49,127 nt of DNA from Ionaspis alba (Eukaryota), in contig CAXUUL010000039.1 in NCBI GenBank assembly GCA_964255285.1, positions 1 to 49,127 of the forward strand. Direction: 5' to 3'. The notes under the pieces were generated by a model. That model worked only from the letters and a program-made list of their open reading frames with translations. It searched no databases and had not been told where the DNA came from. Below, in pieces: positions 22,378-49,127 of the stretch (positions are counted from its first letter, which is position 1; each line of letters begins with the position of its first letter). Position numbers and translations under genes: made by a program.

Positions 22378-23138
22378 CTAATCACCCAAAGCAGCCTTCC
22401 TCGCTGCCTCCGCTTTCATCGTCCTAAAAATCGACAAATCCAACGGCAACCTCTCCCCCATCCACGTCGCCCTTTGCGTATGATCCCGTTCCTGATCCTC
22501 CGTGTTCGGATGGACAAGCACGCTCAACGGGCCCCTGTTGACGACTAACCAGGAGACAAATCCTCCAAACTGCTGCGGCGTGAAGACGTTGACTTCGAAC
22601 ATGCCTGTTAGATGTGGTCCGATGGGCCGGTCGAAGAGCCGGTAGATGCGGAGTTCAGGGACTAGGCCAAGTATTAGCTATGGTGTGTGGGGGAGGGAAG
22701 AGTACGCCTGGTGGGGATGGACGCCAGTCAGGGAGAAGGCTTACATTCGCGACGGATGCGCTCCCAGAGGGCTTTGGCGAAAGTGGTTTGTTCGGCGTTG
22801 TTCTGTATTTAGTGGTCAGTCATCGGGGGTTCTTGAACAAATGTGTTAGGGATGAGAGTGTCGTACTTGGTAGAAGTAGATATGGACGTCGAAACCGCCC
22901 CTCTCGTCATTGCCGATGGGGTCGGGGAATTTCTCGTAGGCTTTGCTGAGAGTCCCGGTCTCTTCGTTGACGAACTTGACCGTGTGGTTGTCTTTGACTG
23001 TTTCCCTGTAGTATCTTAGGGCATGCTCATATGATGGAGCAAAAGGAGTGGGCGGTCAGGCTTGACTTACATTGAGATGGGAGGTAGGTGCTCGTACCCC
23101 TCAAGAGGGGATGGGTATGTGTATAGTGATGGGTCCAT
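22378..23138 (-). CDS. DOPA 4,5-dioxygenase family protein; introns 23006-23070, 22803-22866, 22662-22744
   Basis: Spliced MDPSLYTYPSPLEGYEHLPP..GGFDVHIYFYQ|NNAEQTTFAKALWERIRREF|PELRIYRLFDRPIGPH..MFEVNVFTPQQFG..NRGPLSVLVHPNT..RDHTQRATWMG. Confidence 0.9.
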
Positions 23139-25808: not shown

Positions 25809-26103
25809 GTTGAACAGTATGTATAGATTAAAGACCTGCTATTATTCAAAAGATCGGAATCGCGATAGCGAGTGCGTTGTCGGAGGCGTGCAAAGGACAA
25901 AGAGCGTAGAGAGATATCTGATTCAAAGATAGGACGCAAACCAAAGTCTGCAAAGCACGAAGCACGATTGGCAAAGTAGCGACGTAGAGTCGAGTCACNN
26001 NNNNNNNNNNNNNNNNNNNNNNNNNNNNNNNNNNNNNNNNNNNNNNNNNNNNNNNNNNNNNNNNNNNNNNNNNNNNNNNNNNNNNNNNNNNNNNNNNNAG
26101 CCA

Positions 26104-27519
26104 TCACTTCACATCCTGCAAACTTCCCCACAAATTATTCAAACTCTCCGCCAACGTCGGATGAGCCCACACCGCCGCTTCCAGGCCCCTCCATCCCACA
26201 TTTCCCATCATTGCCATCTGCACCACACTCATGATCTCTCCACCCTCCAAGCCCAAACACGAAAAGCCCAAAATCAACCCACTCTCCGCATCCACAACCG
26301 CTTTCATCAATCCCCTACTCTCGTCCGTCTCCAATGCTCGCGCAACATGCGTCATCGACATCGAAGCAGTCTGCAGCTTTCGCGGCGGTGAAAGTGCGCG
26401 AGCTTCCCGCAGATGGAGACCGACGTGCGCCATCTGTGGATCCGTGTAGCAGACGTAGGGAACGATTCGCTTGCTTATGGTCCGTGGCGCTGGTGACGGG
26501 TTGAGTAGATTTGTTTGGAGAATGCGAAAGTCGTCGTAGGAGATGTGGGTAAATGCGGGAGGACCTTTGACGTCTCCTATCGCCCAGATGCCGGATACCG
26601 AGGTCTCCAACCGGTCGTTGACGGAGATGTAGGAGCGCGCACCGGTTTTCACGCCGGCGGTATCGAGACCTAGCATATCGGTATTGGGAACTCGACCAGC
26701 CGCACATAGGAGATGGCTTCCGGCGATCTGTTCTTCCTTGCCGGAGGGCAGGCGGATGTTCAAATTGATTGGGAGCTTGTCGGATGACATTGAGACTGTT
26801 GTAGCATTTGTGGAGAGATAGACCACGATGCCGTCTTCTCGTAGGATGTCCAGCATACAAGCCGCGACCTCCGGGTCCTCACGGGGTAAGAGCTGGGAAG
26901 CACGTTGGATTATCGTGACCTCCGCTCCCAAGCGCCGGAAAAGCTGCCCGAATTCAAGTCCAATGTAGCCGCCTCCCAGGACCAGAAGATGTTCCGGGAC
27001 GATATCGAGCTCTTGAATGGAAGTCGAATCCAGGAGACTGGCGGCTGGAATGGTGTGGAGGCCTGGAAGATCTGGGATGGCCGGACGCTCGCCCGTATTG
27101 ATCACTATAGTATCGGCAGCGATCTCGCGCTTGGAACCATCATTCATCGATACGAGTAAGCTCTTTGGAGAGGTAAATGACGCTTCTCCCATCAGAACAT
27201 CCACCCCAGCCGCTTTCAACCGGGCTTCATTGCCCTTGCGGAAGCTATCCACGATATCTCGCTTCCGCTGACGTACTTTGATCATGTCGACGCTGATATC
27301 ACCGTCTTTGGCACCCGGCATATGGATACCATAATCAGCCGCTCGATGGGCATGATAAGCTACCTTTCCAGAAGCGATGAGAGTCTTAGTGGGAGTGCAN
27401 NNNNNNNNNNNNNNNNNNNNNNNNNNNNNNNNNNNNNNNNNNNNNNNNNNNNNNNNNNNNNNNNNNNNNNNNNNNNNNNNNNNNNNNNNNNNNNNNNNNG
27501 AAAGCAATTGCAAAGACAT
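26104..27519 (-). CDS. Class I pyridine nucleotide-disulfide oxidoreductase (mercuric reductase/dihydrolipoamide dehydrogenase-like); N-terminus lost in gap 27400-27499, start uncertain
   Basis: CTPTK (second Cys of the redox CxxxxC), INTGERP, NAD(P)H motif VLGGGYIGLEFG, AAGRVPN, TSVSGIWAIGDV and HPTLAE. Confidence 0.88.
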   Translation of the reverse strand: MSLQLLXXXXXXXXXXXXXXXXXXXXXXXXXXXXXXXXXXCTPTKTLIASGKVAYHAHRAADYGIHMPGAKDGDISVDMIKVRQRKRDIVDSFRKGNEARLKAAGVDVLMGEASFTSPKSLLVSMNDGSKREIAADTIVINTGERPAIPDLPGLHTIPAASLLDSTSIQELDIVPEHLLVLGGGYIGLEFGQLFRRLGAEVTIIQRASQLLPREDPEVAACMLDILREDGIVVYLSTNATTVSMSSDKLPINLNIRLPSGKEEQIAGSHLLCAAGRVPNTDMLGLDTAGVKTGARSYISVNDRLETSVSGIWAIGDVKGPPAFTHISYDDFRILQTNLLNPSPAPRTISKRIVPYVCYTDPQMAHVGLHLREARALSPPRKLQTASMSMTHVARALETDESRGLMKAVVDAESGLILGFSCLGLEGGEIMSVVQMAMMGNVGWRGLEAAVWAHPTLAESLNNLWGSLQDVK

Positions 27520-31156: not shown

Positions 31157-32606
31157 TCAGGAGGACCTAACGAACAACCCCTTTGGCTTCAAAATCCAAG
31201 CTCCCACACTCAATGAACTCAACAACATACAGACGCCGGTGAAGATCACAATTCCCTTGTATCTCAGAGCCCCATAACTTGGGACATTAGTAGTTTGGGA
31301 GATCAATACCGCAGACAGCGGCCCTGCCAGGACATTGCCAACTCCCTTTTCAAACGCAAAGATGCTGAATGTAGCCATTGCAGCCGCAGGATCGGCACTG
31401 AGTGCAGTCCCCATACGAGCCCAGAGTACAACAAATCCTCCGCCAAAGCCCCCATATATGAGCGAAAAGATGATTAGAGGCGGGAGCGAGCGTCCGAGAC
31501 CCCAAAGCGTGAATGCAGCTATTGCACAGGCACAAGGAGATAAGAACATCAGGAAGTGCAAGGGGAGTCGGTAATCGGAGAGCCAGCCAAACGCAATCTG
31601 TCCAAAGAGCTGTGACAAGCTTACGAGAGCAAGGAGGAGAGCGCCCGTCGAAGGATCGAAGCCTATGGATGTAGAGTAGGAAGGGAGAAAGATCAACGGG
31701 ATGAACCAGGACATCCCCTGAAAAAGATTCGCTGTTGCGAACACGTAAAAAAGTGGCTTCTTCAGAAATGACCAGTCTGTCTTCGGGATCGCGCCGTCTT
31801 GAACACTTGGTAGCCTGCCCTTCAGCATAGGTAGCAAGGGCCCGGTCAGGACAGCCAGACCAACAGCTGTAGCTCTCAAGGTGATTTCATAGCCATACTT
31901 CTTCAACAAGACCTCCATCACAAGTGGTATAGCAACTCCAGTCAAGCCAGTGGCGCAACACAAGACCCCGTATGCAAGGCCTCTTTTCTGCACGAACCAC
32001 TCGTTAAGCATACTAAGAAGCGGGTAGTAGAGCAAAAGGACCCCCAGCCCATATAATACGCCTTGAGTCAAGATGAGGATTTCGATTGTCCTTGCGAAGC
32101 TCCCAGCAACGAGTGCTAGGATACATGTGGGCCATCCGATCCAGATCATGTGGCGCTGATATCGATGAAACCTCTTCACGAAGGGGCTGATCAGTGGAGC
32201 TCCAAGATAAGAAATGCCGGTGGCCACAGTTCCCACGACCGAGATATTTTTGCTTCCACGAAAGGGTTCATGCTCGGAATAGTAGTCTTGGAAGACACCA
32301 TAAGATAGTGGAAATCCCAAGCGAAATGTTAGGGCTTGACTTCTCACTCTGTAGGGGTCCGCTCTTACCCCAAAGCAGCGCTTCGAAAACAAAAGCTCCA
32401 AACAAAAGCTTATATGCCCCAATACCTCGATCGACAGGAGGTAATTGATGGCTCTCCGAGCTGTAATGGTCATCAATATTGGTGTCGGTTTCCATAGTGA
32501 CTTCGTTAATCCGGTTGGACGGACAGGATTGGCTATGACTCAATCTTGGTAAACTAGGAAGCTCTTGCAGCTCGGTCTCGCGCGGTACAGTCATTGATGC
32601 CATCAT
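31157..32606 (-). CDS. MFS monocarboxylate transporter-like protein (MCT/Mch family); one intron ~32317-32368 with a non-canonical acceptor
   Basis: LPPVDRGIGAYKLLFGAFVFEALLW|GFPLSYGVFQDYY, TQGVLYGLG, EWFVQKRGLAYG and FGWLSD, with about 12 hydrophobic segments. Confidence 0.9.
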
Positions 32607-33472
32607 CAAACCCTAACATCAAGTGCGAAATAAAGGACGAGACGAAAATTCTCCGCGTTATCCTCGATTCCTGGAATGTTGTGGCGACGCGATAGGCCGC
32701 GTTACCGCAGATCTGTGTCTTGGCAGCTANNNNNNNNNNNNNNNNNNNNNNNNNNNNNNNNNNNNNNNNNNNNNNNNNNNNNNNNNNNNNNNNNNNNNNN
32801 NNNNNNNNNNNNNNNNNNNNNNNNNNNNNAATGTTGTGGCGACGCGATAGGCCGCGTTACCGCAGATCTGTGTCTTGGCAGCTACAAAGAAGATATATTT
32901 GCGCTAAGCCTGATCACACCCTCGTCCCTATTACTGGCTCTCTGATCGTCTGTCATACTAGAATAACCCAGTAGCTGGCCCTTTTAGCCATAGGCAGCAT
33001 AGCATTCAGGTTGGTCAATGAGTAATGCTTTACACTACTCCTTTATCTCTCGCAATTACACGACAATTGAATCTGTTGCCCCTGGCTTCAGCGTGGGTCA
33101 CAAGTATATTTCTTGATCCATTGATTATGCAGTATCCTTACAATCGCATGGTGGATAATCGTGTAGGATCTTTCTTGTGTACGTTGAATAGTCTTACTGC
33201 CTAAATATTGACAGTGACTGCAGATGCATACTTGAGGCTAGTTGTCCGTGATTACCATTCGCCCGCCTTTGCCTCTCCTCTATGACTGATTGACGAAGCC
33301 GTCCTGCCATGAATCCAGTGATAAAAATTATAGAGGACGAATCGCTTATTACTCAAACATCTCAATCATCGTCTGAAAGGACCCGTGGTCATCCGGAGCG
33401 CATAGCAACCCGTCAAATACAGAAAAACAGGCAGTGCCCGCTGCCAACAATAAAACAAATGATTGAACAGCG

Positions 33473-34084
33473 TCAGTCGCCTGACGTGCCAAGCCAATAG
33501 TCGTCGTGGTCCACGTTCGTGGTCTTATCATGCGTCTCGAGTGTATACAGCCTTAGAAACCGACCGTCAAGATCCTAAGCATGATTAAGCGAGTGTATCA
33601 GAACTTCCGCTCAAATCCCCGATATCAGGACTTTGCAGTGCAGAACATACCTCAAAGCAGAGCAGCCAGCCCGTAACGCCTACGAAGACTTTGCTTCTGT
33701 GCACCCCTTTCTCATCTAACCAAGTCCCCCACTGTTCCAGATCCTGCTTGCACTGCACAGCAAAGGTGACTGGATCGAACCCCTTCGCTTTAGCTGCTTC
33801 GTTCTTGTCCTCCCTAATTCATGTCAGCACATCCCTAGTACTCCTTAACCTTGCCCCTAACATGCTTACCTAAGCTCGAGAACACCCTGACTCATGCCAG
33901 GCACATTCATCTCGACAGCATAGCGCCTCCCACTTGCCGAGAAATGATCAAGTTCAGCTATACGAGAAGCAGACAACACAGAAGTGTACCAATCGATTGA
34001 AGCATCGATATCAGATACAGGGAATTTAAGGTGATGAATTCCCGCCAAGTTTTGGGTAGGATTTGAGACATAGGAGGAAGACAT
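33473..34084 (-). CDS. VOC/glyoxalase-bleomycin resistance-dioxygenase family protein; introns 33814-33869 and 33575-33650
   Basis: Spliced LAGIHHLKFPVSDIDASIDWYTSVL..LELR|EDK..GFDPVTFAV..DLEQWGTWLDEKGV..GWLLCFE|DLDGRFLRLYT..DDYWL. Stop at 33473-33475. Confidence 0.85.
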
Positions 34085-35058
34085 TGTAGATGTGCGAGAC
34101 GGGGGCGGAGAGATAACAGACTTGAGAAGGAGAAAAGGGTACGTGATACTGCCAAAAGACATTGTTCTGAGCGAGGCTATAATATCGGGTCTTTAATATT
34201 GAGTATTTTGGCCCCCAAAGCAATGAAAGGTCGCGAACTCCGCAATGACGGAGGAGGCTCCGGTACCACGAACGAATTGGGGAGTGCATTGGAAAGCAAT
34301 GATAAGGGAAAGGCCATCATATGGTTGGACGCAGAAGCGGCGATCAAGGCTCTCGAGTCTGACAGGCAAACTACGACATGGAGACGTGGTTGGCCAGCAG
34401 GATGGAAATCCGGTGATTGCATCGTCCTTGACGTTGGGGTGTGAGTAATAATCCGATTTGTGTATTCCATGTGATGACCAAGCATCCGAGAGATCCGCTC
34501 GGCCTCTCGGACTTTAACAAGGGAGATAAGGCGGCGGAAAAAGGCTGGAAAATGACGAATCGGGTAAGGTGGGTTTGTCATTCTTGACGTCTCGTCGTGC
34601 CTCAGGCAATAATGATGCCACCGATGAGGGTCAATATCTTTTCAGTGCAATGACGAGTGCTTCGTTGTTGAAGACCCCGTTATGAAGGGTTAAATCAAGT
34701 TACACACTCTACAGACATGTAGTAGGCAAGCGGCTATCGTGCGACCGTAAATTTCTAGCCTCACAAACAGAGCCTCAACAAGATTCCGTTTCCATCCCAA
34801 GAACCCTTCTCATACCTGCTTTTCCCTTTTCAAACAAACAAGTCAACGCATTTTTCAAGCTTCCAATAACCTGCCATAATGTTCCAGAACAGTGCGATCC
34901 GCCAACAGCCTCAAGTTTCATCAAAAACTGCGCTTAGCACGATTCTGGCCGCAGACAAAACACCAGCTGGAAGGAGCTAGCTACGCACAAGGGAGAACTT
35001 TAAGAACATGTCGCACTCTTCTTGCGAAGCTTCATGAAATCCCAGCTTCGAGGTCTGA

Positions 35059-37982
35059 TCAGAAGAACTTCTGAGCTGGAGGGCAAGTCGATAAACTTTG
35101 TGCAGCGTCGTTGTTCCCGGCTCCATCCTGAGAAGGCATAGAGACACGAACACGTTTCTCAGAGAGCGGAGTACCATCTGCCTTACGCTTGCTGCCGGCG
35201 GAAGTGATTCTGGTACCAGCTTTCGCTTTGCGCGGAGTTGTAGGAGCACGGAAGTTGCCATCCCTCGGGTCGTCAATCTCTTCGCTGCTCTGCTCGGTCT
35301 CTTCAACATGTGTAATGCGCTTGGTCTTCTGATTAGCAAGGCTGCCCGGCTCGCGCTGGTTGTGTTGCTTAGCAGCCGAAGTCCGCTGAATGAGAGAAAT
35401 TAGCAAATGTCGTTGCTCATGTCAAGTCGTGCTGCTTACCTTGTCACGATCAATTGAGTACTCCATATCACCGTGCGCCTCGGGACTTTCAGCGCCTGTG
35501 TTCGCAGTGCTTGCTAAACCACGTGCTTGAATTCCTATACTCAAGTCGTCGCTCGCGACAGCACGAGGCATGCGGAAGGTTTTCTTTCCCGAGACAGGAA
35601 GTGGATTCTTGAGCCTCTCTGCAATGATCCCGCCAGACGTATCAGGGAGTCCCAGAGCCAGCAGGGCCTTGGCAGCCTGGTCAGAGATAGGGTATAACCC
35701 GTTCGCATCACGCACTGGTTTGTTCCCACGCTTCTTGGGAGTCTTCTTGGAGTTTGCACTCTGCTCGTTCTCAGCCTTCATAGCTGCGGCTGTCTTTGTT
35801 GAGATACCAGTCTCGCCATAGTCGATGCCGGCTTGCATAGCTTCCTGGCTGATCCGAGAGGTTGGTAGATCTCCAAGTTGGTCTTCATACCAGGTCCCAG
35901 TCTTCTCGGGCTTCTTACGTGGGCCTCTCTTCTTCATAAAATTAGCATACAGCAGCATTCTATAAACAATCCATGTTTTACCTTCTTCGCGGCGCTTGGC
36001 TCTTTTGCTTGGTTCGTGATATCACTCTTCGCCTGTGGAAGAGGATTGAGTTCGTGGAATTCCTTTATGAGGTCTTTGAAGTCTTTTGGCTGGTAGGTCT
36101 TTCCATCAGCCCCGACATATGGCTGAGTAGGTACGAAAGGCATTCCGAGTCGGGGAGTCATTGATGGCGTTTGAGTTGCCAAAGCCGCATAGCCACTTGG
36201 TGCAATAGACTTCGGGAACCGCGATCGCGTGGGAGACTCATACGCAGGTGGACGAGGAATCTCATCGCCTGTCGGAACCTCAAGTGTCTCATTCGCTACC
36301 TGGGTGCTACTCAAAACGGCAGCGGTTGGTCCTGTCCCAGTGGAACGAAGTCCTGGTGAGATGGGTCCCTGGGTAAAGTGACGGCCATGTTCTGCAAGGA
36401 AAGAGCTTAGCATCTTCTCGTTCTTTTCGTTCTCTCGAAGGATCTCTGCTCTTTTCTGCTGATAGCGGCCAGACAGTGTTTGATAGGACTCTGTGGCGAG
36501 TATCGGATCGAGTACTGTCGAATTGATGATACAACCAGAATCGGAAACCCTAGCAGTATTGTTCCCTAATCGTACGAAGCAAGAGTGAGTTTGAGGCACG
36601 TCAGCTTGAGTGTCATGAGCCTGACTGACCTTGGTTGCTAGGATGTCCCAAACTCTGAACGTGGATCTTATCCGACAAGAATGTTTTGGGGTGCTTAGTA
36701 TGGAAATCTCCATTCTGGTATGGTATTGATGTAGTGGCTGGAGGTTCGAGGACTACAGGACCACGGCGCAGACCACCCATCCCATGTGCTGACGCATACT
36801 TGTCTGTGAGAGCTTTCACTTGTTGGTTGCGCTCTGCTTCACGGTTAACATACTCTTCGTATATCTTGACACGTTCATCCAGCAAGAGTTTGTCAAGTTT
36901 GAAGTCAGCAGCCCATTTCTTGTTACGCACCGCCGTCAATTTCTCCTGCTCTTCGTCCGACAAGTCTGTAGTCTTTGTACAGCTTGCTGTAAGACTTGCT
37001 TTGGCTACCATACGGGAGGCGTTGTATAGCTCTTCAGCTTTATGGGGTTCGATAGGCGCATCGCCAATTTTCCACCCAGGCGGAGGTAAGACATCGCTTA
37101 GAAGAGCAAGGCCTCGAATTCCATGCGCTGGACCGATCTCGTCGGCTCTGTAGGCATATGGGTTGGTATTGCGAGGATCTGTCGAGGTTTTCAGAGTTGC
37201 AAGGTTCTTCGCGACCGAACCTGAATCAAGTTCGCNNNNNNNNNNNNNNNNNNNNNNNNNNNNNNNNNNNNNNNNNNNNNNNNNNNNNNNNNNNNNNNNN
37301 NNNNNNNNNNNNNNNNNNNNNNNNNNNNNNNNNNNGTCGAGGTTTTCAGAGTTGCAAGGTTCTTCGCGACCGAACCTGAATCAAGTTCGCTAGATGCGAG
37401 CACATGTGTTGACCCAGGTTTTGATCCTTCGTGACTGATTGAGACCCCGCCTGTCTTTTCGGGTTCTGATTCGAAGCTGGACAATGTTTCCATAATGGTG
37501 GGGAAATGGTTCGCTGGATGTGGCTCGTGAACGCCTACAACCCTTCCGTCGCCAGGTGGCATGAACGCCGAACTTTCATTGCCATTGGAGACAATTTCGG
37601 AGATCTTCCTGCGCTGCTCTCTCCCCGCGGATGCTGTAATGAGATATTAGCAGTTTGTCTCACACAGTGAGCTGAGGAAGTCATTACGGCTCAAACCAAG
37701 ACTTGCAGCTCGCAACTTGCCATTCTTTCTGGAGCTCATAGGACTGACTGCTTCAGCATAGCTCTCACTGTTCTTGGTCAGCCTGTGGTCCAACTAATTG
37801 GATGGTCAGACTGCAGTATACGGTGGGGTATCATATTCCTTCCTTCGGTTTCCCTCATTTTTGGCTGTACTGCTATCGTGGTGTAGTGGATTCGGTTCTG
37901 TACCATTGCTTGTAAGGTTGATGCTATCACCCCTTGGGTCTGGTTCGACTTCAGGATTCGAGGACGGAGATGACTCTGCCAT
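35059..37982 (-). CDS. Large multi-exon hypothetical protein (basic, largely disordered, short coiled coils), about five introns
   Basis: The minus-strand ORFs 37806-37982, 37191-37562, 36613-37011, 35934-36713, 35422-35958 and 35059-35406 can be chained by GT..AG introns with branch sites (e.g. AAKK|GTAAAA..GCTAAT..GAAG|KRGPR and DRDK|GTAAGC..GCTAAT..TCAG|RTSAA). Removing the duplicated gap flank joins ..TLKTS-TDPRN..NASRMVAK in frame. The 5' exon boundaries are uncertain. Confidence 0.6.
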
Positions 37983-40797: not shown

Positions 40798-41318
40798 CTT
40801 TAGATAATGAAGTCAGTCAGATGAACGTCAAAGTCAACTTGGGTAGATTTGGATAGATTTGGGTAGATTCTGAGATGGGGATATTGCTGAGATTGGAGTG
40901 AAGGAGATGTGTGAAGGAAAATGGACCTGCGGAGTGAGGTAAAAGTTTTCGGTGCTACTATTGACTGTGACTCTGTAAGGTCTACACAGCAAGCTCCACA
41001 GCACAAGGATAGAAAGGGCTGGCTGGAGATTTGGATAACATGAGGATGAAAAGAGGCGATTGATTAAGCACAAAGGTGTGAGAGATGCAGGGTGGGATGG
41101 GAAGGTTGGATATTAGAAGTGATGGTTGAGACACGAAAATTGCATACCTTGACTTAGCTGAAAGCGGCTTCTGCTTGTCTTGCGGGTCAGAAATTTGAAG
41201 ACCGGGCGAGCGGGCGGACCTGGGATCAATGAAAGTGAGCAGAGTGAGCGTCTTTAGAGATCTTGAACTCGAATGAGTAACATAATAGAGAGGCATGCAG
41301 ATGTAGAGAGGTGCTTAC
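40798..41318 (-). other. Putative 5'-UTR introns of the helicase (41220-41318 and 40798-41147) flanking a 72-nt non-coding exon
   Basis: Consensus donors AAG|GTAAGC (41318) and AAG|GTATGC (41147). Acceptors CCCAG (41220) and CTGAC..TAAAG (40798), the latter 18 nt before the ATG. Confidence 0.55.
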
Positions 41319-44300
41319 CTTCAGCTGTACTTTACTGGACCTCGTCGACCGGAGAAGTACCAAGCAGACGACCTAATCAGTAGTAATAGTAAGCCTCGAG
41401 AAGATCAAGCCGAAAGAAGAAGACCACTGTGTTTTGGAGGAAAGAAAGAAAAGGAAGGAAGGAGCGAGTTGGCGATCGGCCTTTTGTAGAAGGAAGGAAC
41501 AGCTCGCTTAGCCCTAAGAACAGTGAAGCATCGCAGCGCATCGTTCACAACATTCACGCTAACGCCAAAAACGTACCTAGCGCAACCCTTCCCGAGCTAA
41601 CCGAGGAGGGCCAGAGGGAGGGCCCATAAGGATAATATATACCAACGGCAAGCAGATGACAATTTTGTGCAGTTCATATATACACCTCGACAGCACTCTT
41701 CATACAAGCTCAATTCGAGGCTCTCGAAACTGGAATGAAGGGTCGCTGCCCCAAGCATTACTGCCTTGACACTGCAGCAGATCACAGACTCCATGAAAAA
41801 GAGAAAGGCCGGAGTGCAATGGTTCATAAATATGATACGAGGAAAAGATAGCGTGTGAGTACAAGCTGGGCGTTTAGAGCAGAGCATGGTGTAAAGACTC
41901 ATCCTTCCGAAGACAGGATGTTGGAAGATTCCGGGCTGCTTCAGGCTCCCCTTTACACTTGGTAGCTGCCAAAACNNNNNNNNNNNNNNNNNNNNNNNNN
42001 NNNNNNNNNNNNNNNNNNNNNNNNNNNNNNNNNNNNNNNNNNNNNNNNNNNNNNNNNNNNNNNNNNNNNNNNNNNGATTGCCTACAAACAGATTGATGAA
42101 GTGCCATGCCTTTAACTCTGCTTCGACCCAAGGCCTGTGACAAAGTACTTGGTTTGTTCTTTAAGTCCACAGACAACCTGATCAGAAGCTATGGGTGACT
42201 TGAGCCATTCACTGCAGGATCGGTTGTCTCGTGGCCATTGGCACCAAAGTTCAGGCTGGCTCGTTGAAGATTCAGTGGTGATTCATGGAGTCTGTCTTGC
42301 GAAAGCCTTGTCAAAACTATAGGCCTCAAGAGTCGTCCTTGACACAACAGGAGGCTGAATCCAGAAACCATATAGAAGAGTCTTCCGAAGAACTTGAAGG
42401 TAGCAGGAGGTGCTCCTCTTCTGCTATATTTGTTGTCATCATTGGTATAATGCTGGGTAACAAAGAAGCCAGGGTGCTGGATTGCGAAGTGAATGTGGCC
42501 TAAGTACCAGTGGCTCCAAAATGAAACTGGTCAGGGGGATGGGAAAACGCCACTGGCCGTGCCCACGGCCATAGCGGCCAATGGTAAAATATGTGTTCAT
42601 GAAGAGCCGCAAAAAAAGAAATGAGAACGACAAGCATCCTGTTTTTCCTATAGCTAATGTTGCATAGTCCGAGCTTGACAATACATACAAAGCACAAGTC
42701 TTAGGTATGGAGATCAAGAAAAAATGTTAGAATATCCCTACACCTCAACGCCAACATGAAACTCCACGGGTACTGCATCATCAATGCTGGGAATTGAAGG
42801 TCGACGGTACCACGAGACGCACTACCAACACGAATATCTGCAGTCATTATTTGATCCAGAACAACGCTATCAACTCCCAAAATCCCGGTGACACGAGCAC
42901 GGAAGGCTTGGTACAAATCGTATTTCCCGTGGATAAAAAGGGACCGAACATTGGAGTGCCTCTTGGCCAAACGGAGCTTCCCTGTTCAACGAAATCCTTG
43001 CGGTCCCTGTTCAGGAGATCCCCTGAGAATATGGATGCACAAGGAAGGCGGCGCACCCACGGTTGCCCATCTGCAGCATCCGAGGGTCTGGGCAACATGA
43101 GGCAAAAAGAGCGCCTCATGTTACCCAGGCGCAGTGTTAGTGCAAAATGCCCCAGTAGGCCGACTTCAGAAAAAGCCAGCCAAGCCGAGTTTGGAGTTCT
43201 CGGGGTTGGAATGCTGCTTGTGTGCAAATTTAAGGATAATCAACAAGCTTCAGAAAGGAGCAATACCCCCAAGCAGTTGTCCGTAAAGCATCAGGCACCA
43301 GGAACTTCCTGGGCAAGACGGTCTTTGGGGATTGAACGAGACAGTTGTCANNNNNNNNNNNNNNNNNNNNNNNNNNNNNNNNNNNNNNNNNNNNNNNNNN
43401 NNNNNNNNNNNNNNNNNNNNNNNNNNNNNNNNNNNNNNNNNNNNNNNNNNCACCAGGAACTTCCTGGGCAAGACGGTCTTTGGGGATTGAACGAGACAGT
43501 TGTCAGCAACCTGGGTGACCAAGTTGCAAAGGTCCCCTTTGACGCAAAGGGAGAGATTGAGCGAGATCTGTGCCATTGATGCATCGTGGGCAGGGAGAGA
43601 GTCTCGGATGAGATTATATATAGGTAGGCGGATTGCAAAAAAGCTATGTCGAAGTGGGTAGGGTGGTCGAACTAGGTTAGAGGTAGTCTGAGGAAGAGTC
43701 TTCAAGGATGAGTGGTCGAGGATGAGTGGTCGAGGGTAGGGGTTGAGAATTTGTGTCAGTCTTCGAGATTGGGTCCATGATGAACCATGGAAGCTATCAA
43801 GACGGGTCCTCTTGAGCTTGAGGGCCTGCAACGTCTTCCACTGGGCTGTCCAGACCCTAGCAGGACCTAGAGGTTAGCTTCCGTCAGTACGTGTGCGGTG
43901 CCCTATCCGACTGGATCGTTTACTTACTCGGTTTGCGACCGTACGTACCACCAATCATCAAGACTCAGGAGACGTGTCGACAACGTGCTTGTCTTGTGCT
44001 GGACTTCTAGAGCTGCTAGTCGCTACTTGCTGAGCAGAATATGCTGGTACAAGCTCGGGGAGAGACCCAAGTGTCAATGTGATGGAGCTATTCTTGACCC
44101 ATCCTGGGCGTCAGGATATCGGTAGGAGTCTTCCTCCTTGCCGACGAAGGAGTTACCGTTTCTAGCAATCTTGATTCTGTCTTGCTGCCGTCCGATGTCG
44201 ATATCTTGACCTCTTCTCCTACTGTCTACCGTCATGACCTTGGTTTTGCTTTCCAACCTGATGACCTCCAAAACCTTGTGACAGCAGCAGTCGTTCAGGC

Positions 44301-46643
44301 TTGGCAGTGCTTTGGTACAGAGCTGTCTGACTTGCCTAGCAGTCATTGAAACCTGTCGATCATGGTCTGTTCTCCTGCCTGAAAGGGGACTCAGTGAGGA
44401 TTTGGAGCGTGGGTACAGGACCGAGGTAGGTGTTACGACACTGATGAGTTGAGTCTGCAAGGCAGACGACAAAGGATGAAGATGGGCAACAGCTCAACAA
44501 GTCATGCGACAATGGTGCATTGTACATCATGCATGAGGAAAAGACTTGTCGATGTTGAGGGTGTTACTGATGAGGAGGTTGTTGAAGATTGAGAAGGAAG
44601 GGATGGGAGATGTGGTTTAAATAGTGCGACCAAGTCCACGGTAAGCCCTACAATGCTACCAATGGAGTGTTCACAAGACAGTATGGCACCATTTCCTATG
44701 ATTCAATAGTCAATTCAATGCCATTAGCGAACTTCATAAGGCAATTCATGCTTCGTTTGCATCAGGGCTCCGGCATGCCAGCGGTCAAATGGAGTCAGAA
44801 GCATCCTTCATCGTGACTGTTCACTCAATGAGCCGAGCTTGTTTACCTAGGCAGCTATGGCCTTCTTCTCATGTGAATAAGGATGGGCAAGGTTCCTGCC
44901 CCTTTTGTACAGCTTCTAAGGCCCCAATCTGTCTGTCTCGATTCTGGTCATCTCGTCTATCTGCTCTTTACCAACACCAGGCTTTTCAATCCTCAGATTT
45001 GCAAACGCGTCCATAAACTTAACCCAGGTGGAGCCAAAGAGCTCATCTCAGGGGCTGCTCGGCATCCTCGGACGAACCCCGGCTTCCTATGCCATTCACT
45101 ACACCCTTCTGTCCTCAAGTCCCGTAGCGCCTCAAACTCCTCGGCAAGTTGCGTGATGCTGTGAAGCATTCCCTTGTGACGGGTAAGCTCGGATGTCCCA
45201 GATGTCGCCTAGCGTTCCCGTTAGCGTCAACACCAGCTTCAGCAACACATCTTGGGCTTCTAGAGTGTGTCATCAAGTAAGGCATCTTTTCTCCTTCCTG
45301 GACACACGTTGTGGACCTTCCTAACAAGCTACGGGGTGTGGTTTTCGGTAGAGAACCTACTCCTAGCTATCAACAGCCAATTCCAGCCTGGTTAGAAGAA
45401 TCAACCAAGAGCTCATGACCTACAATTGACTACAGAGACCTACGCCGAGACTGTCAAGTCAAGTGTCAAAAGAGGAGTAACTCTGTTTGCCTATAGCCTA
45501 TCCTGAATCCTGTGAGGGTAGGAAATAGGACTTCAGAAGCCCTGACTGGTTTCTTGAGACGCATCCAACACAATTGACGCCAAACATCGGAGCAGAGACC
45601 TCGTGGCTTTCAATGACCTCTCTCTCTCATCTACGAAGTAAGGGGTTACACCCTAGAGGCTACAATCAAATCCAGGAGACACATATATAGCATTCGAAAT
45701 CAACCTTCGAAGGAGCATGGTCCCAGCTGTCAGCTGACGTTCCTATGTTGTAGGAAGGGAGACATCTAGAGCTCAGGGGTAACGGTTGACATCACGAAAC
45801 ATACACGAAGCACTCGAAGCCCAAGTCTTGACAGATTCGCCATGATTGCAATGAGCCTTTTGTGGAGAAAAAAACAGGGCAGTGGTAGCTCAGGGGTTAC
45901 GGAGGTGTGAGAGGCTATTGTTCAACCTTCTGTATTGGCAGTTGAGTCGACATACGTAGGATGCAAGGGACGGTAATATATTTTACAAAGTCGACAATAT
46001 ACTGACAGGATTTCGATAATCACAGATGGGCGTAGAGCTGGAACCAATATACCGCCAACGGCTACCGTATTGATCTACGGTCGAAGTAAGAGATACTACT
46101 ACATAACAAGAACGATACGATTGTAGGGCTCCAGGGGTGACAAGTCGGCATGAAGCTGATACTCTACCTTCTACATAAGCCACTGACTCGACTTACACAC
46201 AATACAGGAGATGGTACTACTTGCCACAGACCGTCGAAACATGGCTGGAGAGGAGATATCATTGTACCGAGAGTTTGTCTAGCAAATCTAGCCGCTTATC
46301 AATTGCAACAACCATTCTCGTCAGCAAAACACAATCGACCCTGCACGCTAGAGAAGCAGATCCAAGCAACATTCCATTAAGCCCCAGTCTTGCACCATTT
46401 TCCATTATCGCTTCCCAGCCACACCGCCCCCCTCGTTACTTCAACATAAGCATATGTCATATGTCTGTCTTGCTGGCTCAATCATGCTCGCGAAGCCATG
46501 CAGCAACATCACACAAAGCCAAGCAATTTGGACGAGTCTATCTACGCAAGTATCAGCACGTGACACCCACCAAATGACGAGCAAGGGGCATTGATACTAT
46601 TCACTACATTACCTTCATGAATCCGTAAATACCACCAAATCTC

Positions 46644-47532
46644 TCAAGCAAACCAGGATTTCAGCGGCTTAAAGCCATCCGGGCCTTCAGCTTTCGAAGG
46701 TGTGACTGGTCGTCCGCGGATGGCGACCCTCCGCTCACGGTCTGCCGGAATCGAAGGAGTGAGGATACTCGCGAGGCGCTTGCGAAGACACCCATGCCAC
46801 CCAAAGCATTCAACAAGCTCAGTGGTGGGAGGAACTTCCGGTGCTGGGGCAAGGAGACCCGTCAATCGCTTCTTGAGGCATTCCTGCCAGCCCGCGCAAT
46901 CCATACCATTGCTGGCTCTTAGGGGAGGTGCTCGGGCGAAGAGACTTGTGATACGCTTTTTGATGCACGAGTGCATTCCGAAGCAGTTGCTTATGTCTGA
47001 GTCTGGACCGACAGCCGCTCGGGCGAAGAGCTCGGAAAGACGCTTCTTGATGCATGAGTGCATTCCAAAGCATTCCGCCGCTTCGGTGAGGGGACCGATA
47101 GCAGTGGTAGCTGCAGCGGAGGTCGTAACGCCCTGAGAATTGTGAGCGTATCCAATACAATACCCGGTGTATCGTGCCACCTACTTCACTATCCTCGTTG
47201 CGGCGCACAAGCTGGCCGTTGCGGCTCTCAACACTGTCGAGAGATGGCGAAGGACTTACCTCACGACGGTCGAGGTTGTGGAGTATGGCGTTTGCTGTTT
47301 GGTCAGGTTAGCGGTTACGCCGTTCAAGTTGTCGGATCCATTGACGCTTACCTTCGGCATCGCGTGACATGATCACGCCGGCTTTGACCACTGCATCATC
47401 GGAGACTCCACGAGCGGCCACAGGACTCACTGCTAGGACACCGGCTTCGATACTCCTAGGCACGTAGGGGGCTGCAGAGCAGAGTGCCAATGTCACTGCC
47501 AAGATGACGTAGGCGATCCCGTGGGAGTGCAT
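46644..47532 (-). CDS. Secreted Kex2-processed repeat protein (KEP-like) precursor with four Cys-x5-Cys peptide units; exons 47352-47532, 47260-47294, 46644-47132 (~234 aa)
   Basis: Signal peptide MHSHGIAYVILAVTLALCSA-AP. Introns GTAAGC..GCTAAC..ACAG (47295-47351) and GTAAGT..GCTCAC..TCAG (47133-47259) keep the frame. Repeats CFGMHSCIKKR x2, CAGWQECLKKR and CFGWHGCLRKR. Confidence 0.82.
46776..47072 (-). repeat. Four tandem coding repeats, period 87/87/90 nt
   Basis: First-Cys codons at 47072, 46985, 46898 and 46808. Units 1 and 2 share the core CFGMHSCIKKR with synonymous differences. Confidence 0.9.
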
Positions 47533-47735
47533 CTCGATGTTTCTCTTCGACAGCTTGTACAACCACGAAATTTGACTGAGACTTTTTGAAGAATAAGAGG
47601 GGAAGATATGAATGTCAATTGTCAAAAGCTCGAGGCTGTCTCTTCAATTGAGATGGAGAATAGCTAGAGGACGTGGTGGGAGCTCGAGTTGTTGAGGAAG
47701 GAGAAAGAGGACAGGAATGCGAGGGCCATCGCTGT

Positions 47736-47743
47736 TTCTTATA
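47736..47743 (-). promoter_or_regulatory. Putative TATA box followed by a CT-rich tract upstream of the KEP-like gene
   Basis: TATAAGAA about 205 nt upstream of the ATG, followed on the minus strand by a pyrimidine-rich stretch (CCTCTTTCTCCTTCCTC). Confidence 0.45.
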
Positions 47744-48309: not shown

Positions 48310-49127
48310 TCACGCAAGGATTCCTTCAATGCGTTGTCTGAGCCATAACCATGATCTTCTGACAACTGAACCATTGCTAGCCTTGCTGTCCATATCTGGA
48401 AGTCGTCGAATCCTCTCAATTGGCCTCTGAGACTGAATCTCCTTTTCAGAGAACCAAGTGCCGTGAAGGCCATATGGTACTCGCTGGGGCAACTGCACTT
48501 TTGCCACAACATTCCTCATATTCCTTGCATCAATGATCCAGAGCTCGCTCTTCGCGTCGGGCATGCACTCTCCAGACGCATCGAGCTGACTCTCGTCAAA
48601 GACGTAGCTAAGCAGCCAGCCATCATCTTCTGCAACACCGTTCGCACGGGGAACAAAGCGTGGTTCTTGCGCGTACCAGCCTGGTGGCATCTGGAACATC
48701 TTGATTGGGTCGTCCGGATCCTGGCTAGCCAGTACTTCGTCCACATTCCGTGTGTCTACGCAACCTTTGATTTGCATTGGTGGTTGTCGAAGTCCTCGCT
48801 CGATCAAAACTGTTACGTCGATCTTGACGAGAGAGTTAATCTTGACAGCTCGTCCTAGCGCAGCACCGAAAGAGCCTCCTGAGACAGAGCATCCGTAGAT
48901 ATACCTGGCTGCGGACATGGAGGCTGAATCTCTCAAGGTTGGGAACTCGAAAGGTATTGCAGACAATGCCCATTGATGACTGATTGGGCCTATAGTGGTA
49001 GCATGCGATCCAAGGTCAACAGTATTGGGGGCCAGTGGGAACTGGTAGTAGTAGAGCTGGCATTTTTCTTCTTCCTGCATATGCTTGGGTATAGCTTGAG
49101 ATGGAACAGGAGCAGCGAGATCACCAG
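48310..49127 (-). CDS. Carotenoid oxygenase / RPE65 / lignostilbene dioxygenase family protein, 3' part (5' end beyond window)
   Basis: PFEFP, YIYGC, QEPRFVPR..EDDGWLLSYVFDE, SELWIIDA and LPQRVPYGLHGTW (last Fe-binding His). The frame is open to the window edge. Confidence 0.92.
   Translation of the reverse strand, partial: GDLAAPVPSQAIPKHMQEEEKCQLYYYQFPLAPNTVDLGSHATTIGPISHQWALSAIPFEFPTLRDSASMSAARYIYGCSVSGGSFGAALGRAVKINSLVKIDVTVLIERGLRQPPMQIKGCVDTRNVDEVLASQDPDDPIKMFQMPPGWYAQEPRFVPRANGVAEDDGWLLSYVFDESQLDASGECMPDAKSELWIIDARNMRNVVAKVQLPQRVPYGLHGTWFSEKEIQSQRPIERIRRLPDMDSKASNGSVVRRSWLWLRQRIEGILA

What the first reader, a model, noticed from the sequence alone, without database searches (positions are those of the whole stretch)
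46644..47532. Secreted multi-core precursor of disulfide-looped peptides (KEP-like): candidate new peptide signal or effector family
Seen: the ORF track splits this gene, but two consensus introns join a signal-peptide exon to an exon with four 29-30-aa units. Each unit ends C-(F/A)-G-(M/W)-(H/Q)-x-C-(I/L)-(K/R)-K-R, and an RR site precedes unit 1. Established: a signal peptide plus repeats separated by KR is the architecture of Kex2-processed repeat proteins, alpha-type pheromone precursors and dikaritin RiPP precursors. Differences: the ascomycete alpha-pheromones I know have a WC-x6-C core with GQ, whereas this core is C-x5-C with no W before the Cys. No DUF3328/UstYa oxidase is recognisable in the window. 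Inference: the precursor yields four related peptides closed by a 7-residue disulfide ring, possibly a divergent pheromone, a symbiosis or host signal, or an antimicrobial.
Basis: partly seen in the sequence, partly recalled or inferred. Interest (0 to 1): 0.85.

Follow-up and report, generated by a model that had tools for sequence, protein, structure and literature searches.

The report
Orphan fungal Kex2-type multi-peptide precursor
A small three-exon fungal gene encodes a secretion signal followed by four related units of about 29 residues, each ending in a two-cysteine loop and a Lys-Arg cutting site; this is the ordinary build of a fungal multi-peptide precursor, here without detectable relatives and unusually variable within one sequencing run.

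Summary
On the minus strand, an ATG at 47532 opens a signal-peptide exon. Two consensus introns join it in frame to an exon (47132..46644) with four 29-31-aa units, each ending C-[FA]-G-[MW]-[HQ]-x-C-[IL]-[KR]-K-R. That motif gave 0 matches in 300 shuffles of the window. Intron 2 has a second in-frame donor, which would add 25 aa without changing the architecture.

No RNA run was listed. Variant contigs of one DNA run keep the frame, every splice signal and the invariant C/G/W/C/KR. They vary 3.6-fold more in the introns than in the exons.

The protein meets both published definitions of a Kex2-processed repeat protein (KEP). It fails the tested alpha-pheromone features, and no DUF3328 gene is visible. 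No homologue appeared in four protein or metagenome searches. However, the neighbouring conserved enzyme also finds nothing above 73% identity, and a third of catalogued KEPs are stand-alone.

Verdict: a real stand-alone KEP, a new member of a known kind. Cleavage, disulfide rings and function are inferred. The one unusual feature is a 551-bp island of dense variation centred on the gene.

The parts
47738..47743 (-). possible TATA box (TATAAG), about 206-211 nt upstream of the ATG
   Evidence: Read from the sequence only. Inference, not tested.
47352..47532 (-). exon 1: start codon, signal peptide and start of the pro-region (60 codons plus 1 base)
   Evidence: First in-frame ATG after the stop at 47644-47646. 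Codon-usage score +0.25 bits per codon, against 0.08-0.235 for 10 reference ORFs of the window.
47473..47532 (-). predicted signal peptide, residues 1-20 (MHSHG + hydrophobic core + C-S-A)
   Evidence: It is the only hydrophobic segment of the protein: the 11-mer Kyte-Doolittle maximum is 2.63 at residues 9-19, and 19-mer windows above 1.6 occur only at residues 3-7. Small residues sit at -3/-1. SignalP was not available.
47295..47351 (-). intron 1, 57 nt, GTAAGC...CTAAC...CAG
   Evidence: Without splicing, the frame stops at 47310-47308. 4 of 57 places vary in run X1, and donor, branch and YAG acceptor are kept.
47260..47294 (-). exon 2 (35 nt; ..ANAILHNLDRRE), carries the RR site before unit 1
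   Evidence: It extends to 47185 if the alternative donor is used.
47133..47259 (-). intron 2, 127 nt (GAG|GTAAGT...CTCAC...CAG). An alternative in-frame donor GTAGGT at 47184-47179 would give a 52-nt intron.
   Evidence: 20 of 127 places vary in run X1. The 75 nt that only the alternative model reads as coding vary at 14 of 75 places, with codon positions 1/2/3 = 3/5/6. One haplotype turns GTAAGT into GTGAGT, still a consensus donor.
46644..47132 (-). exon 3: four repeat units, tail, TGA stop (46646..46644)
   Evidence: It is the only one of six frames with a positive codon score (+0.058 per codon). The open antisense frame scores -0.035.
47040..47132 (-). unit 1 (31 aa), core CFGMHSC-I-KKR
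46953..47039 (-). unit 2 (29 aa), core CFGMHSC-I-KKR. It differs from the core of unit 1 by 3 synonymous bases.
46866..46952 (-). unit 3 (29 aa), core CAGWQEC-L-KKR. The variant haplotype has Q>H and E>G in the ring.
46776..46865 (-). unit 4 (30 aa), core CFGWHGC-L-RKR. The variant haplotype has F>Y in the ring.
46647..46775 (-). 43-aa tail. It starts like a unit (LASIL..), has no cysteines, and holds one RR site.
46804..47354 (.). island of dense sequence variation within run X1 (33 partial-depth variant places, two to three haplotypes)
   Evidence: tables 3 and 8. All 33 partial-depth variants of the 2301 bases laid fall here (Fisher p = 1.5e-21). Contigs drop rare variants, so the flanks may be less uniform than they look.

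Best explanation
This is a real, lineage-restricted gene for a Kex2-processed repeat protein (KEP) of a filamentous ascomycete, possibly a lichen-forming one.

Proposed course; every step below is inferred. The 20-residue signal peptide takes the 234-aa (or 259-aa) pre-pro-protein into the ER. There the two cysteines of each unit, six residues apart, close a seven-residue ring. The eight cysteines left after signal-peptide removal form four local pairs. In the late Golgi, the Kex2 protease cuts after the KR that ends every unit and probably after the RR sites. A Kex1-type carboxypeptidase removes the trailing basic residues. Four related peptides of 26-29 residues are secreted. Each has a moderately conserved N-terminal stretch ([LI]-[ST]-x-L-[FL]-A-x-A), a variable middle, and a C-terminal ring C-x-G-[MW]-x-x-C followed by Ile or Leu. 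Net charge is -3 to 0.

With that charge they are more likely extracellular signals or interaction peptides than cationic membrane-active antimicrobials. Further N-terminal trimming to the ring is possible.

Shown: the coding architecture, its conservation between units and between haplotypes, and compliance with the KEP definitions.
For: - Architecture and motif. Chance is excluded (0 matches in 300 shuffles).
- Coding strand and frame: the gene frame is the only positive codon-usage frame over exon 3, and exon 1 scores strongly.
- Signal peptide: the only hydrophobic segment is N-terminal, and there is no other TM-like window.
- In-silico KR/RR digestion gives 7 fragments. Four are the homologous units, and the repeats cover about 50% of the protein. 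This meets Le Marquer 2019 (section 24) and Umemura 2020 (section 13).
- Selection on the core: the DNA units have drifted to 69% column identity, while C, G, C, K, R are invariant. Units 1 and 2 have identical 11-aa cores with 3 synonymous differences.
- Variation in run X1 shows no indels and no stops. The splice donors, branch sites and acceptors of both introns are kept.
- Within the bubble-covered stretches, introns vary at 24 of 184 places against 9 of 250 in exons (p = 3.6e-4). Ring changes fall only on the free positions (F>Y, Q>H, E>G).
- The 12 exonic differences are 5 synonymous and 7 non-synonymous, pN/pS about 0.47.
- A competing donor at 47430, which would lead into another open frame, is destroyed in X1.
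- Pichia expression and peptidomics have shown that KEPs of other fungi are cut as predicted (PMC9769878, abstract only).
Against: - No transcript evidence exists. No RNA holder was listed, so neither intron is confirmed at RNA level.
- SignalP was not run.
- The codon score of exon 3 (+0.058 per codon) is below all 10 reference ORFs (0.078-0.235).
- The synonymous differences between the unit 1 and unit 2 cores are also synonymous in the open antisense frame (46621..47136 +, 171 aa). That argument alone therefore does not pick the strand.
- No homologue confirms conservation beyond this genome.
- The spacer does not carry STE13-type dipeptides, so how or whether the ring is freed from the 18-residue N-terminal part is unknown.
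- The exon/intron contrast comes from contigs, which may have lost isolated variants.
- Kex2, Kex1 and PDI genes of this organism could not be looked for, because no genome is held.
Confidence: 0.6

Rival explanations
1. It is the precursor of a modified RiPP (dikaritin-like or a new class). The conserved ring residues and the conserved unit head are recognition and core elements for tailoring enzymes encoded nearby. The product would be a small modified macrocycle rather than a plain disulfide peptide.
For: Signal peptide plus KR-flanked repeated cores is also the dikaritin precursor build. 22% of KEP genes have a DUF3328 gene nearby (Umemura 2020 abstract). Each unit has a conserved N-terminal stretch besides the core, as recognition sequences would. 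Only 1.6 kb upstream of the gene is visible before the window ends. DUF3328-type clusters without a recognisable repeated precursor are reported in Lecanoromycetes (PMC12048977, passages).
Against: No DUF3328/UstYa, tyrosinase or methyltransferase family appeared in any of the 146 ORF translations scanned (26, 29, 91). These cover 20.3-49.1 kb at ORFs of 60-75 aa or more, and the whole window at selected ORFs of 120 aa or more. The adjacent genes are a carotenoid-oxygenase-type (RPE65) gene and a gene-poor stretch. Two cysteines six apart are explained most simply by a disulfide.
Confidence: 0.12
2. It is the alpha-type mating pheromone precursor of this lineage, strongly diverged.
For: Alpha-type precursors are KEPs. 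Those of several Pezizomycotina classes carry two conserved cysteines, for example RFCHLPGQGCSK in Xylona (PMC6339444 section 8). Such genes typically lack DUF3328 neighbours (Umemura abstract).
Against: Ring spacing is 5, not 6, and there is no P-G-Q. There is no W before the first Cys. Units begin LS, IT, LT rather than X-A/X-P dipeptides. Trimmed units are 26-29 aa, against the 9-24 aa range given for alpha pheromones (PMC6339444 section 6). There were 0 Pfam families at E <= 1. The four cores differ from each other and between haplotypes, whereas pheromone copies are usually near-identical (that last point is recalled).
Confidence: 0.06
3. It is a secreted repeat protein whose products act structurally, or which stays largely uncut. 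It could be cell-surface or hyphal-coat material in the manner of Ustilago Rep1 repellents, rather than diffusible signals.
For: Units of about 30 aa fall in the 25-50-aa class rather than the pheromone class. Helix-prone unit heads appear in a low-confidence model. The Rep1 analogy is recalled, not tested.
Against: The KR that ends every unit is invariant in all four units and in the variant haplotypes. This argues that cleavage matters. The peptides are not markedly hydrophobic or amphipathic.
Confidence: 0.1
4. It is not a functional gene. It could be a decaying or never-expressed ORF, or the true coding strand is the plus-strand ORF 46621..47136.
For: No RNA evidence, no homologues, a weak codon score for exon 3, and an open antisense frame of 171 aa.
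Against: ATG, signal peptide, two consensus introns and all four units stay in one frame. Three haplotypes carry no stop or indel, and all splice signals are kept. The antisense frame scores negative, is Arg-rich, and has no signal peptide. Open wobble-aligned antisense frames are a common by-product of a coding frame (recalled).
Confidence: 0.07

Closest known systems
Kex2-processed repeat proteins (KEPs) as defined by Le Marquer et al. 2019 (PMC6339444) and Umemura 2020 (PMC7329392), stand-alone class
   Same: It has an N-terminal signal peptide, no other membrane segment, at least 3 homologous fragments between KR/RR sites, repeats of 8-100 aa, and repeats above 15% of protein length. All these criteria are met. 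Like 2560 of the 7878 catalogued KEPs, it has no homologues.
   Different: The conserved core is a C-x5-C ring placed directly before the KR. I found no KEP described with this core. However, the held supplements of both catalogues list accession numbers, not peptide sequences, so my string look-ups say nothing.
Alpha-type mating pheromone precursors of Pezizomycotina (ppg1/ccg-4/ppgA type; example core RFCHLPGQGCSK)
   Same: A secreted KR-separated repeat precursor, with two cysteines in each mature unit and the bioactive part at the C-terminal end of each unit.
   Different: The ring is one residue shorter. There is no PGQ, no leading W, and no STE13 dipeptide spacer. Units are 26-29 aa rather than 9-24 aa, and the cores are not identical to each other.
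Dikaritin RiPP precursors (UstA, PhomA, AprA, GigA)
   Same: Signal peptide and Kex2-flanked repeated cores with conserved flanking residues.
   Different: No DUF3328/UstYa gene in the visible neighbourhood. The core carries a cysteine pair instead of the Tyr-centred cores of ustiloxin and phomopsin (those core sequences are recalled).
Candida albicans Ece1 (candidalysin precursor) and Ustilago maydis Rep1 - recalled, not tested here
   Same: Kex2/Kex1-processed polyproteins that release several peptides of about 30 residues, each ending in KR.
   Different: No sequence similarity was found in any search. Those peptides have no cysteine ring. Candidalysin is hydrophobic and cationic, whereas these peptides are neutral to acidic.
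Animal peptides with a small C-terminal disulfide ring (frog 'Rana box' C-x5-C peptides; urotensin II ring plus one hydrophobic residue) - recalled analogy only
   Same: A seven-membered (C-x5-C) or similar ring at the C-terminal end of a peptide of about 25 residues, cut from its precursor at dibasic sites.
   Different: Unrelated organisms and sequences. Frog peptides are cationic. Nothing was tested.

Membership tests
KEP (Kex2-processed repeat protein) | N-terminal ER signal peptide (SignalP in both definitions) | tested here: met
   Tested by proxy only. There is a single N-terminal hydrophobic core (11-mer KD maximum 2.63 at residues 9-19) followed by C-S-A. SignalP itself was not available.
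KEP (Kex2-processed repeat protein) | At least 3 tandem repeats of 8-100 aa between KR/KK/RK/RR sites (Umemura 2020, section 13) | tested here: met
   Four homologous fragments of 29-32 aa, each ending KKR or RKR. Criteria were read.
KEP (Kex2-processed repeat protein) | At least four fragments after KR/RR cleavage, at least 3 of them similar, repeats at least 15% of protein length, no TM segment (Le Marquer 2019, section 24) | tested here: met
   7 fragments, 4 of them similar. 4 x 29 of 234 aa is about 50%. There is no 19-mer window above KD 1.6 outside the signal peptide. Criteria were read.
KEP (Kex2-processed repeat protein) | Actual cleavage by Kex2 and secretion of the peptides | not testable with these tools
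   Needs peptidomics or heterologous expression.
KEP (Kex2-processed repeat protein) | Expressed, spliced mRNA joining signal peptide and repeats | not testable with these tools
   No RNA holder was listed. Only indirect support exists, from variation that spares the frame and splice signals.
Alpha-type mating pheromone precursor | Match to Pfam mating-factor-alpha families | tested here: not met
   0 families at E <= 1 for exon 3 and for exon 1.
Alpha-type mating pheromone precursor | Mature peptide of 9-24 aa (range in PMC6339444, section 6) | tested here: not met
   Units are 26-29 aa after trimming of basic residues. The feature would be met only with unknown extra N-terminal processing.
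Alpha-type mating pheromone precursor | STE13 signature (X-A / X-P dipeptides) after the KR site | tested here: not met
   Units begin LS, IT, LT. Only the cysteine-free tail begins LA.
Alpha-type mating pheromone precursor | Pezizomycotina core with two Cys six residues apart and G-Q (e.g. CHLPGQGC) | tested here: not met
   Two Cys are present, but the spacing is 5 and there is no GQ.
Alpha-type mating pheromone precursor | Activates the Ste2-type receptor; mating-type-dependent expression | not testable with these tools
   An experiment is needed.
Dikaritin-type RiPP precursor | DUF3328/UstYa gene close by (mean 3.09 genes away in Umemura 2020) | tested here: inconclusive
   None was found among 146 ORF translations. 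But only 1.6 kb is visible upstream, seven 100-N gaps interrupt the window, and ORFs of 75-119 aa below 20.3 kb were not scanned.
Dikaritin-type RiPP precursor | Signal peptide plus repeated core flanked by Kex2 sites | tested here: met

The most novel reading that the evidence does not exclude
The gene is a hypervariable secreted-peptide locus. Two to three haplotypes in one run differ at 5-19% of places over 551 bp centred on the gene. They also differ at the free ring positions of units 3 and 4, while roughly 0.8-0.9 kb on either side is uniform. If these are alleles kept by balancing or diversifying selection, the disulfide-ring peptides would be a recognition signal (self/non-self, mate or symbiotic-partner choice) in a probably lichen-forming ascomycete. 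They would also found a ring-type KEP class.
Probability: 0.12. Interest if true: 0.7.

Novelty: new member of a known kind. Interest (0 to 1): 0.36.

Why it matters
KEP-derived peptides are a large and almost wholly uncharacterised layer of fungal secreted chemistry. If the fungus is indeed lichen-forming, no KEP peptide has been studied in such fungi in the papers I could find. This gene is a clean candidate that can be synthesised and tested: four short peptides with a predicted seven-residue disulfide ring. The local excess of variation, if it proves allelic, would point to a recognition function. That would make the gene a handle on how such a fungus tells partners or competitors apart. 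As it stands, it is a well-formed but ordinary example of a known precursor type.

Tried and rejected
- Whole genome: none is held. I therefore could not search for a canonical pheromone gene, Kex2/Kex1, paralogues, or sequence beyond 49127.
- RNA evidence: no RNA holder was listed. Only one run (X1, contigs) holds the stretch.
- Pfam on exon 1 and exon 3: 0 families at E <= 1.
- PDB sequence search: 0 at E <= 1.
- Word-indexed protein search with exon 3 found only the window's own ORF among 480 candidates. A profile of two double units against longer proteins found only the same ORF among 934 candidates.
- Exhaustive phmmer over 1.84 billion representatives gave 3 hits at E <= 0.001. One is the window's own ORF. 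The other two are proteins of 1852 and 1125 aa, cysteine-free in the matched part, that I read as spurious repeat-on-repeat matches.
- Metagenome scan with the unit alignment: 52 pattern matches, none confirmed by tblastn.
- Degenerate DNA pattern for the core plus KKR plus [LI]: 11 loci, about what chance predicts by my own estimate. All 11 have in-frame stops within about 50 codons, and none has a second core. One (L004) lies in an alternative frame of another gene.
- String look-ups of the cores in the supplements of PMC7329392 and PMC6339444 gave 0 hits. This is uninformative, because the held files carry accession numbers and counts, not peptide sequences.
- The listing of cluster members, to name the neighbour's relatives: database switched off.
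- AlphaFold2 on exon 3 without an alignment: mean pLDDT 45.8, pTM 0.28, no residue at 70 or above. It is uninformative, and no fold search was made.
- Tandem Repeats Finder: 0 rows.
- The sigma-70 promoter and terminator scan does not apply to a eukaryote.
- Earlier notes of this scan: nothing on this genome or sequence. The word search returned only bacterial, archaeal and amoebal repeat-peptide notes that do not bear on this gene.
- Literature searches for lichen pheromone precursors, lichen KEPs and disulfide-bearing KEP peptides found nothing specific (listings only).
- Considered and dropped: metal binding by C..MH.C, because Met and His are not conserved in units 3 and 4.
- Considered and dropped: cationic antimicrobial peptides, because net charge is -3 to 0.
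Full report
WHAT IS THERE

The gene reads on the minus strand. The first in-frame ATG after a stop lies at 47532. It opens MHSHG, then a 13-residue hydrophobic core, then C-S-A. This is the only hydrophobic segment of the protein: the 11-mer Kyte-Doolittle maximum is 2.63 at residues 9-19, and 19-mer windows above 1.6 occur only at residues 3-7.

Read without splicing, the frame stops at 47310-47308. A 57-nt intron (47351..47295, GTAAGC...CTAAC...CAG) and a 127-nt intron (47259..47133, GAG|GTAAGT...CTCAC...CAG) join exon 1, a 35-nt exon 2 and exon 3 (47132..46644) into 705 nt, or 234 codons plus stop.

Exon 3 holds four units of 31, 29, 29 and 30 residues and a 43-residue tail. Each unit ends in C-[FA]-G-[MW]-[HQ]-x-C-[IL]-[KR]-K-R. 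The four matches are the only ones in the six frames of the 49,127-base window. 300 shuffles of the window gave none.

GENE MODEL AND ITS UNCERTAINTY

A second donor (GAA|GTAGGT at 47184) shares the same acceptor and is also in frame. It gives a 52-nt intron and 25 extra residues with a further RR site. Either choice leaves the precursor architecture unchanged.

Codon usage, trained on ten long ORFs of the window, gives these scores:
- exon 1: +0.25 bits per codon;
- exon 3: +0.058, the only positive one of its six frames, but below the 0.078-0.235 of the training ORFs;
- the extra 25 codons: +0.026.

The plus-strand ORF 46621..47136 (171 aa) is open because it is the wobble-aligned antisense of the gene frame. 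It scores -0.035, is arginine-rich, and has no signal peptide. The three synonymous differences between the identical cores of units 1 and 2 are also synonymous in that antisense frame. On their own they therefore do not pick the strand.

INDEPENDENT SUPPORT FROM VARIATION

No RNA run is listed. The one run that holds the stretch (X1, contigs) carries several versions of it. Of 37 variant places in the 2301 bases laid, 4 are at full depth (46107, 47416, 47430, 47449). The other 33 are at partial depth, in alternative contigs that rejoin the same flanks. All 33 lie between 46804 and 47354 (p = 1.5e-21 against the remaining 1750 bases).

No insertions, deletions or stops occur. Classified on the gene model:
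- intron 1 varies at 4 of 57 places;
- intron 2 varies at 20 of 127 places;
- exons vary at 9 partial-depth places plus 3 full-depth ones in 705 nt.

Counting only stretches covered by alternative contigs, introns vary at 24 of 184 places and exons at 9 of 250 (p = 3.6e-4).

The 75 nt that only the alternative model treats as coding vary at 14 of 75 places, spread over codon positions 3/5/6. This differs from exons (p = 5.8e-5) but not from the sure intron parts (10 of 109, p = 0.075).

All donors, branch sites and acceptors survive in every version. One haplotype has GTGAGT for GTAAGT. A competing GTGAGT at 47430, which would lead into another open frame of exon 3, is lost in X1.

The 12 exonic differences are 5 synonymous and 7 non-synonymous (pN/pS about 0.47). 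In the rings they hit only the free positions: F>Y in unit 4, and Q>H and E>G in unit 3. C, G, W, C and KR stay.

Two caveats apply. Contigs can drop isolated variants, so both the uniform flanks and the exon/intron contrast may be overstated. And I cannot tell alleles of co-occurring genotypes from collapsed near-identical paralogues.

RELATIVES

None were found:
- Pfam gave 0 families, and PDB sequences gave 0.
- The word-indexed search of 5.8 billion proteins returned only the window's own ORF, for exon 3 (480 candidates) and for a double-unit profile against longer proteins (934 candidates).
- phmmer against 1.84 billion representatives gave that ORF plus two long cysteine-free repeat proteins, which I read as spurious.
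- In metagenome contigs, 52 pattern matches were all unconfirmed. 11 matches to a stricter DNA pattern were all single, broken by stops, and in one checked case in an alternative frame of another gene.

This orphan status means little, for two reasons. First, the neighbouring RPE65-type oxygenase ORF (48310..49125) finds 424 proteins at E <= 1e-10, but the best are only 73, 70 and 66% identical. Only 1 of the 120 listed carries a name, a Lecanoromycetidae species at 65%. So the genome has no close relative in the database. Its placement among lichen-forming fungi rests on that one name. Second, Umemura 2020 counts 2560 of 7878 KEPs as stand-alone (abstract).

NEIGHBOURHOOD

The window is ordinary fungal chromosome. 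It carries armadillo-repeat, Na/H exchanger, annexin, septin, Vps62, K-channel, pyridine-nucleotide disulfide oxidoreductase, MFS, and DEAD/helicase genes, plus DOPA-dioxygenase and glyoxalase fragments.

No DUF3328/UstYa, tyrosinase or methyltransferase family appeared in 146 ORF translations:
- 26 of the 78 ORFs of at least 120 aa;
- 25 of the 30 ORFs of at least 70 aa between 40.8 and 46.6 kb, plus 4 more upstream of the gene;
- 91 ORFs of at least 75 aa starting between 20.3 and 40.3 kb.

ORFs of 75-119 aa below 20.3 kb were not scanned. Only 1.6 kb is visible upstream of the gene, and seven 100-N gaps break the window. The 5.8 kb downstream of the gene has no Pfam hit and near-zero coding scores.

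HOW IT MOST LIKELY WORKS (inferred)

- The signal peptide directs ER import.
- The eight remaining cysteines pair locally, giving four seven-residue rings.
- Kex2 cuts after the four unit-ending KR sites and probably after the RR sites.
- A Kex1-type carboxypeptidase trims the basic tails.

In-silico digestion gives four peptides of 26-29 residues with net charge -3, -2, 0 and -3. Their charge argues against classical cationic antimicrobials. I favour diffusible signal or interaction peptides. It is unknown whether the 18-residue N-terminal part is removed. KEP processing of this kind has been verified by peptidomics in other fungi (PMC9769878, abstract only).

COMPARISON WITH WHAT IS KNOWN

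The protein passes every sequence criterion of both KEP definitions (PMC7329392 section 13; PMC6339444 section 24; applied).

It fails the tested alpha-pheromone features. The ring spacing is 5 instead of the 6 seen in RFCHLPGQGCSK-type cores (PMC6339444 section 8). There is no GQ, no STE13 dipeptides, the size is outside 9-24 aa (section 6), and there is no Pfam match.

Dikaritin membership is undecided for lack of a visible DUF3328 gene. A lichen RiPP survey reports DUF3328 clusters that lack repeated precursors (PMC12048977, passages). This keeps a remote-precursor idea alive but does not support it.

Resemblances to Ece1/Rep1 and to animal C-terminal ring peptides are recalled analogies, not tests.

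VERDICT

This is a real, well-formed, stand-alone KEP gene: a new member of a known kind. Its cleavage, rings and function are inferred. The claim of a new family and the interest score are too high.

The one feature that lifts it above routine is the 551-bp island of dense variation, which touches the ring residues. If it is allelic, it would suggest a recognition role. Interest 0.36.

Noticed in passing
window 46804-47354: All 33 partial-depth variants seen in run X1 over 2301 laid bases fall in this 551-bp stretch centred on the gene. There are two to three haplotypes differing at 5-19% of places. The flanking contigs of about 1.4 kb are unbranched.
   Followed up: partly
window 46621-47136 (+): A 171-aa open frame antisense to the repeat exon, with its wobble positions aligned to those of the gene frame. 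Synonymous differences between units are therefore synonymous on both strands. The codon score is negative.
   Followed up: yes
window 13937-14036, 25999-26098, 27400-27499, 32730-32829, 37236-37335, 41976-42075, 43351-43450: Seven runs of exactly 100 N. The window is a scaffold of short contigs, and some ORFs (for example the septin and the pyridine-nucleotide oxidoreductase region) are interrupted by them.
   Followed up: no
window 23991-25838 (-): A 616-codon frame with a signal-peptide-like start, a very long Ser/Thr/Ala-rich body and a hydrophobic C-terminal end. It looks like a GPI-type cell-wall mannoprotein and explains the local GC-skew peak (0.26). No Pfam hit.
   Followed up: partly
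window 48310-49125 (-): An RPE65/carotenoid-oxygenase-type gene, cut by the window end, lies directly upstream of the precursor gene. Its best database relatives are only 73, 70 and 66% identical, and the single named one is a Lecanoromycetidae species.
   Followed up: partly
window 40800-46600: About 5.8 kb downstream of the gene has no Pfam match and near-zero codon scores in every ORF tested. It includes two of the N gaps. It could be gene-poor, repeat-derived, or home to orphan genes.
   Followed up: partly
window 22381-22677 (-) and 33869-34192 (-): Exon-sized ORFs match DOPA 4,5-dioxygenase (E 7e-30) and a glyoxalase/dioxygenase fold (E 2e-5). An MFS transporter lies at 31157-32539. Small-molecule metabolism genes are scattered through the window, and none is a known peptide-tailoring family.
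   Followed up: no
L001, L004, L006, L009 (metagenome loci): Four of the 11 chance pattern matches are copies of one conserved sequence. It reads ..CSGLQRCL[RQ]KR.. in a non-coding frame of a gene for a membrane protein. It is unrelated to the finding.
   Followed up: partly
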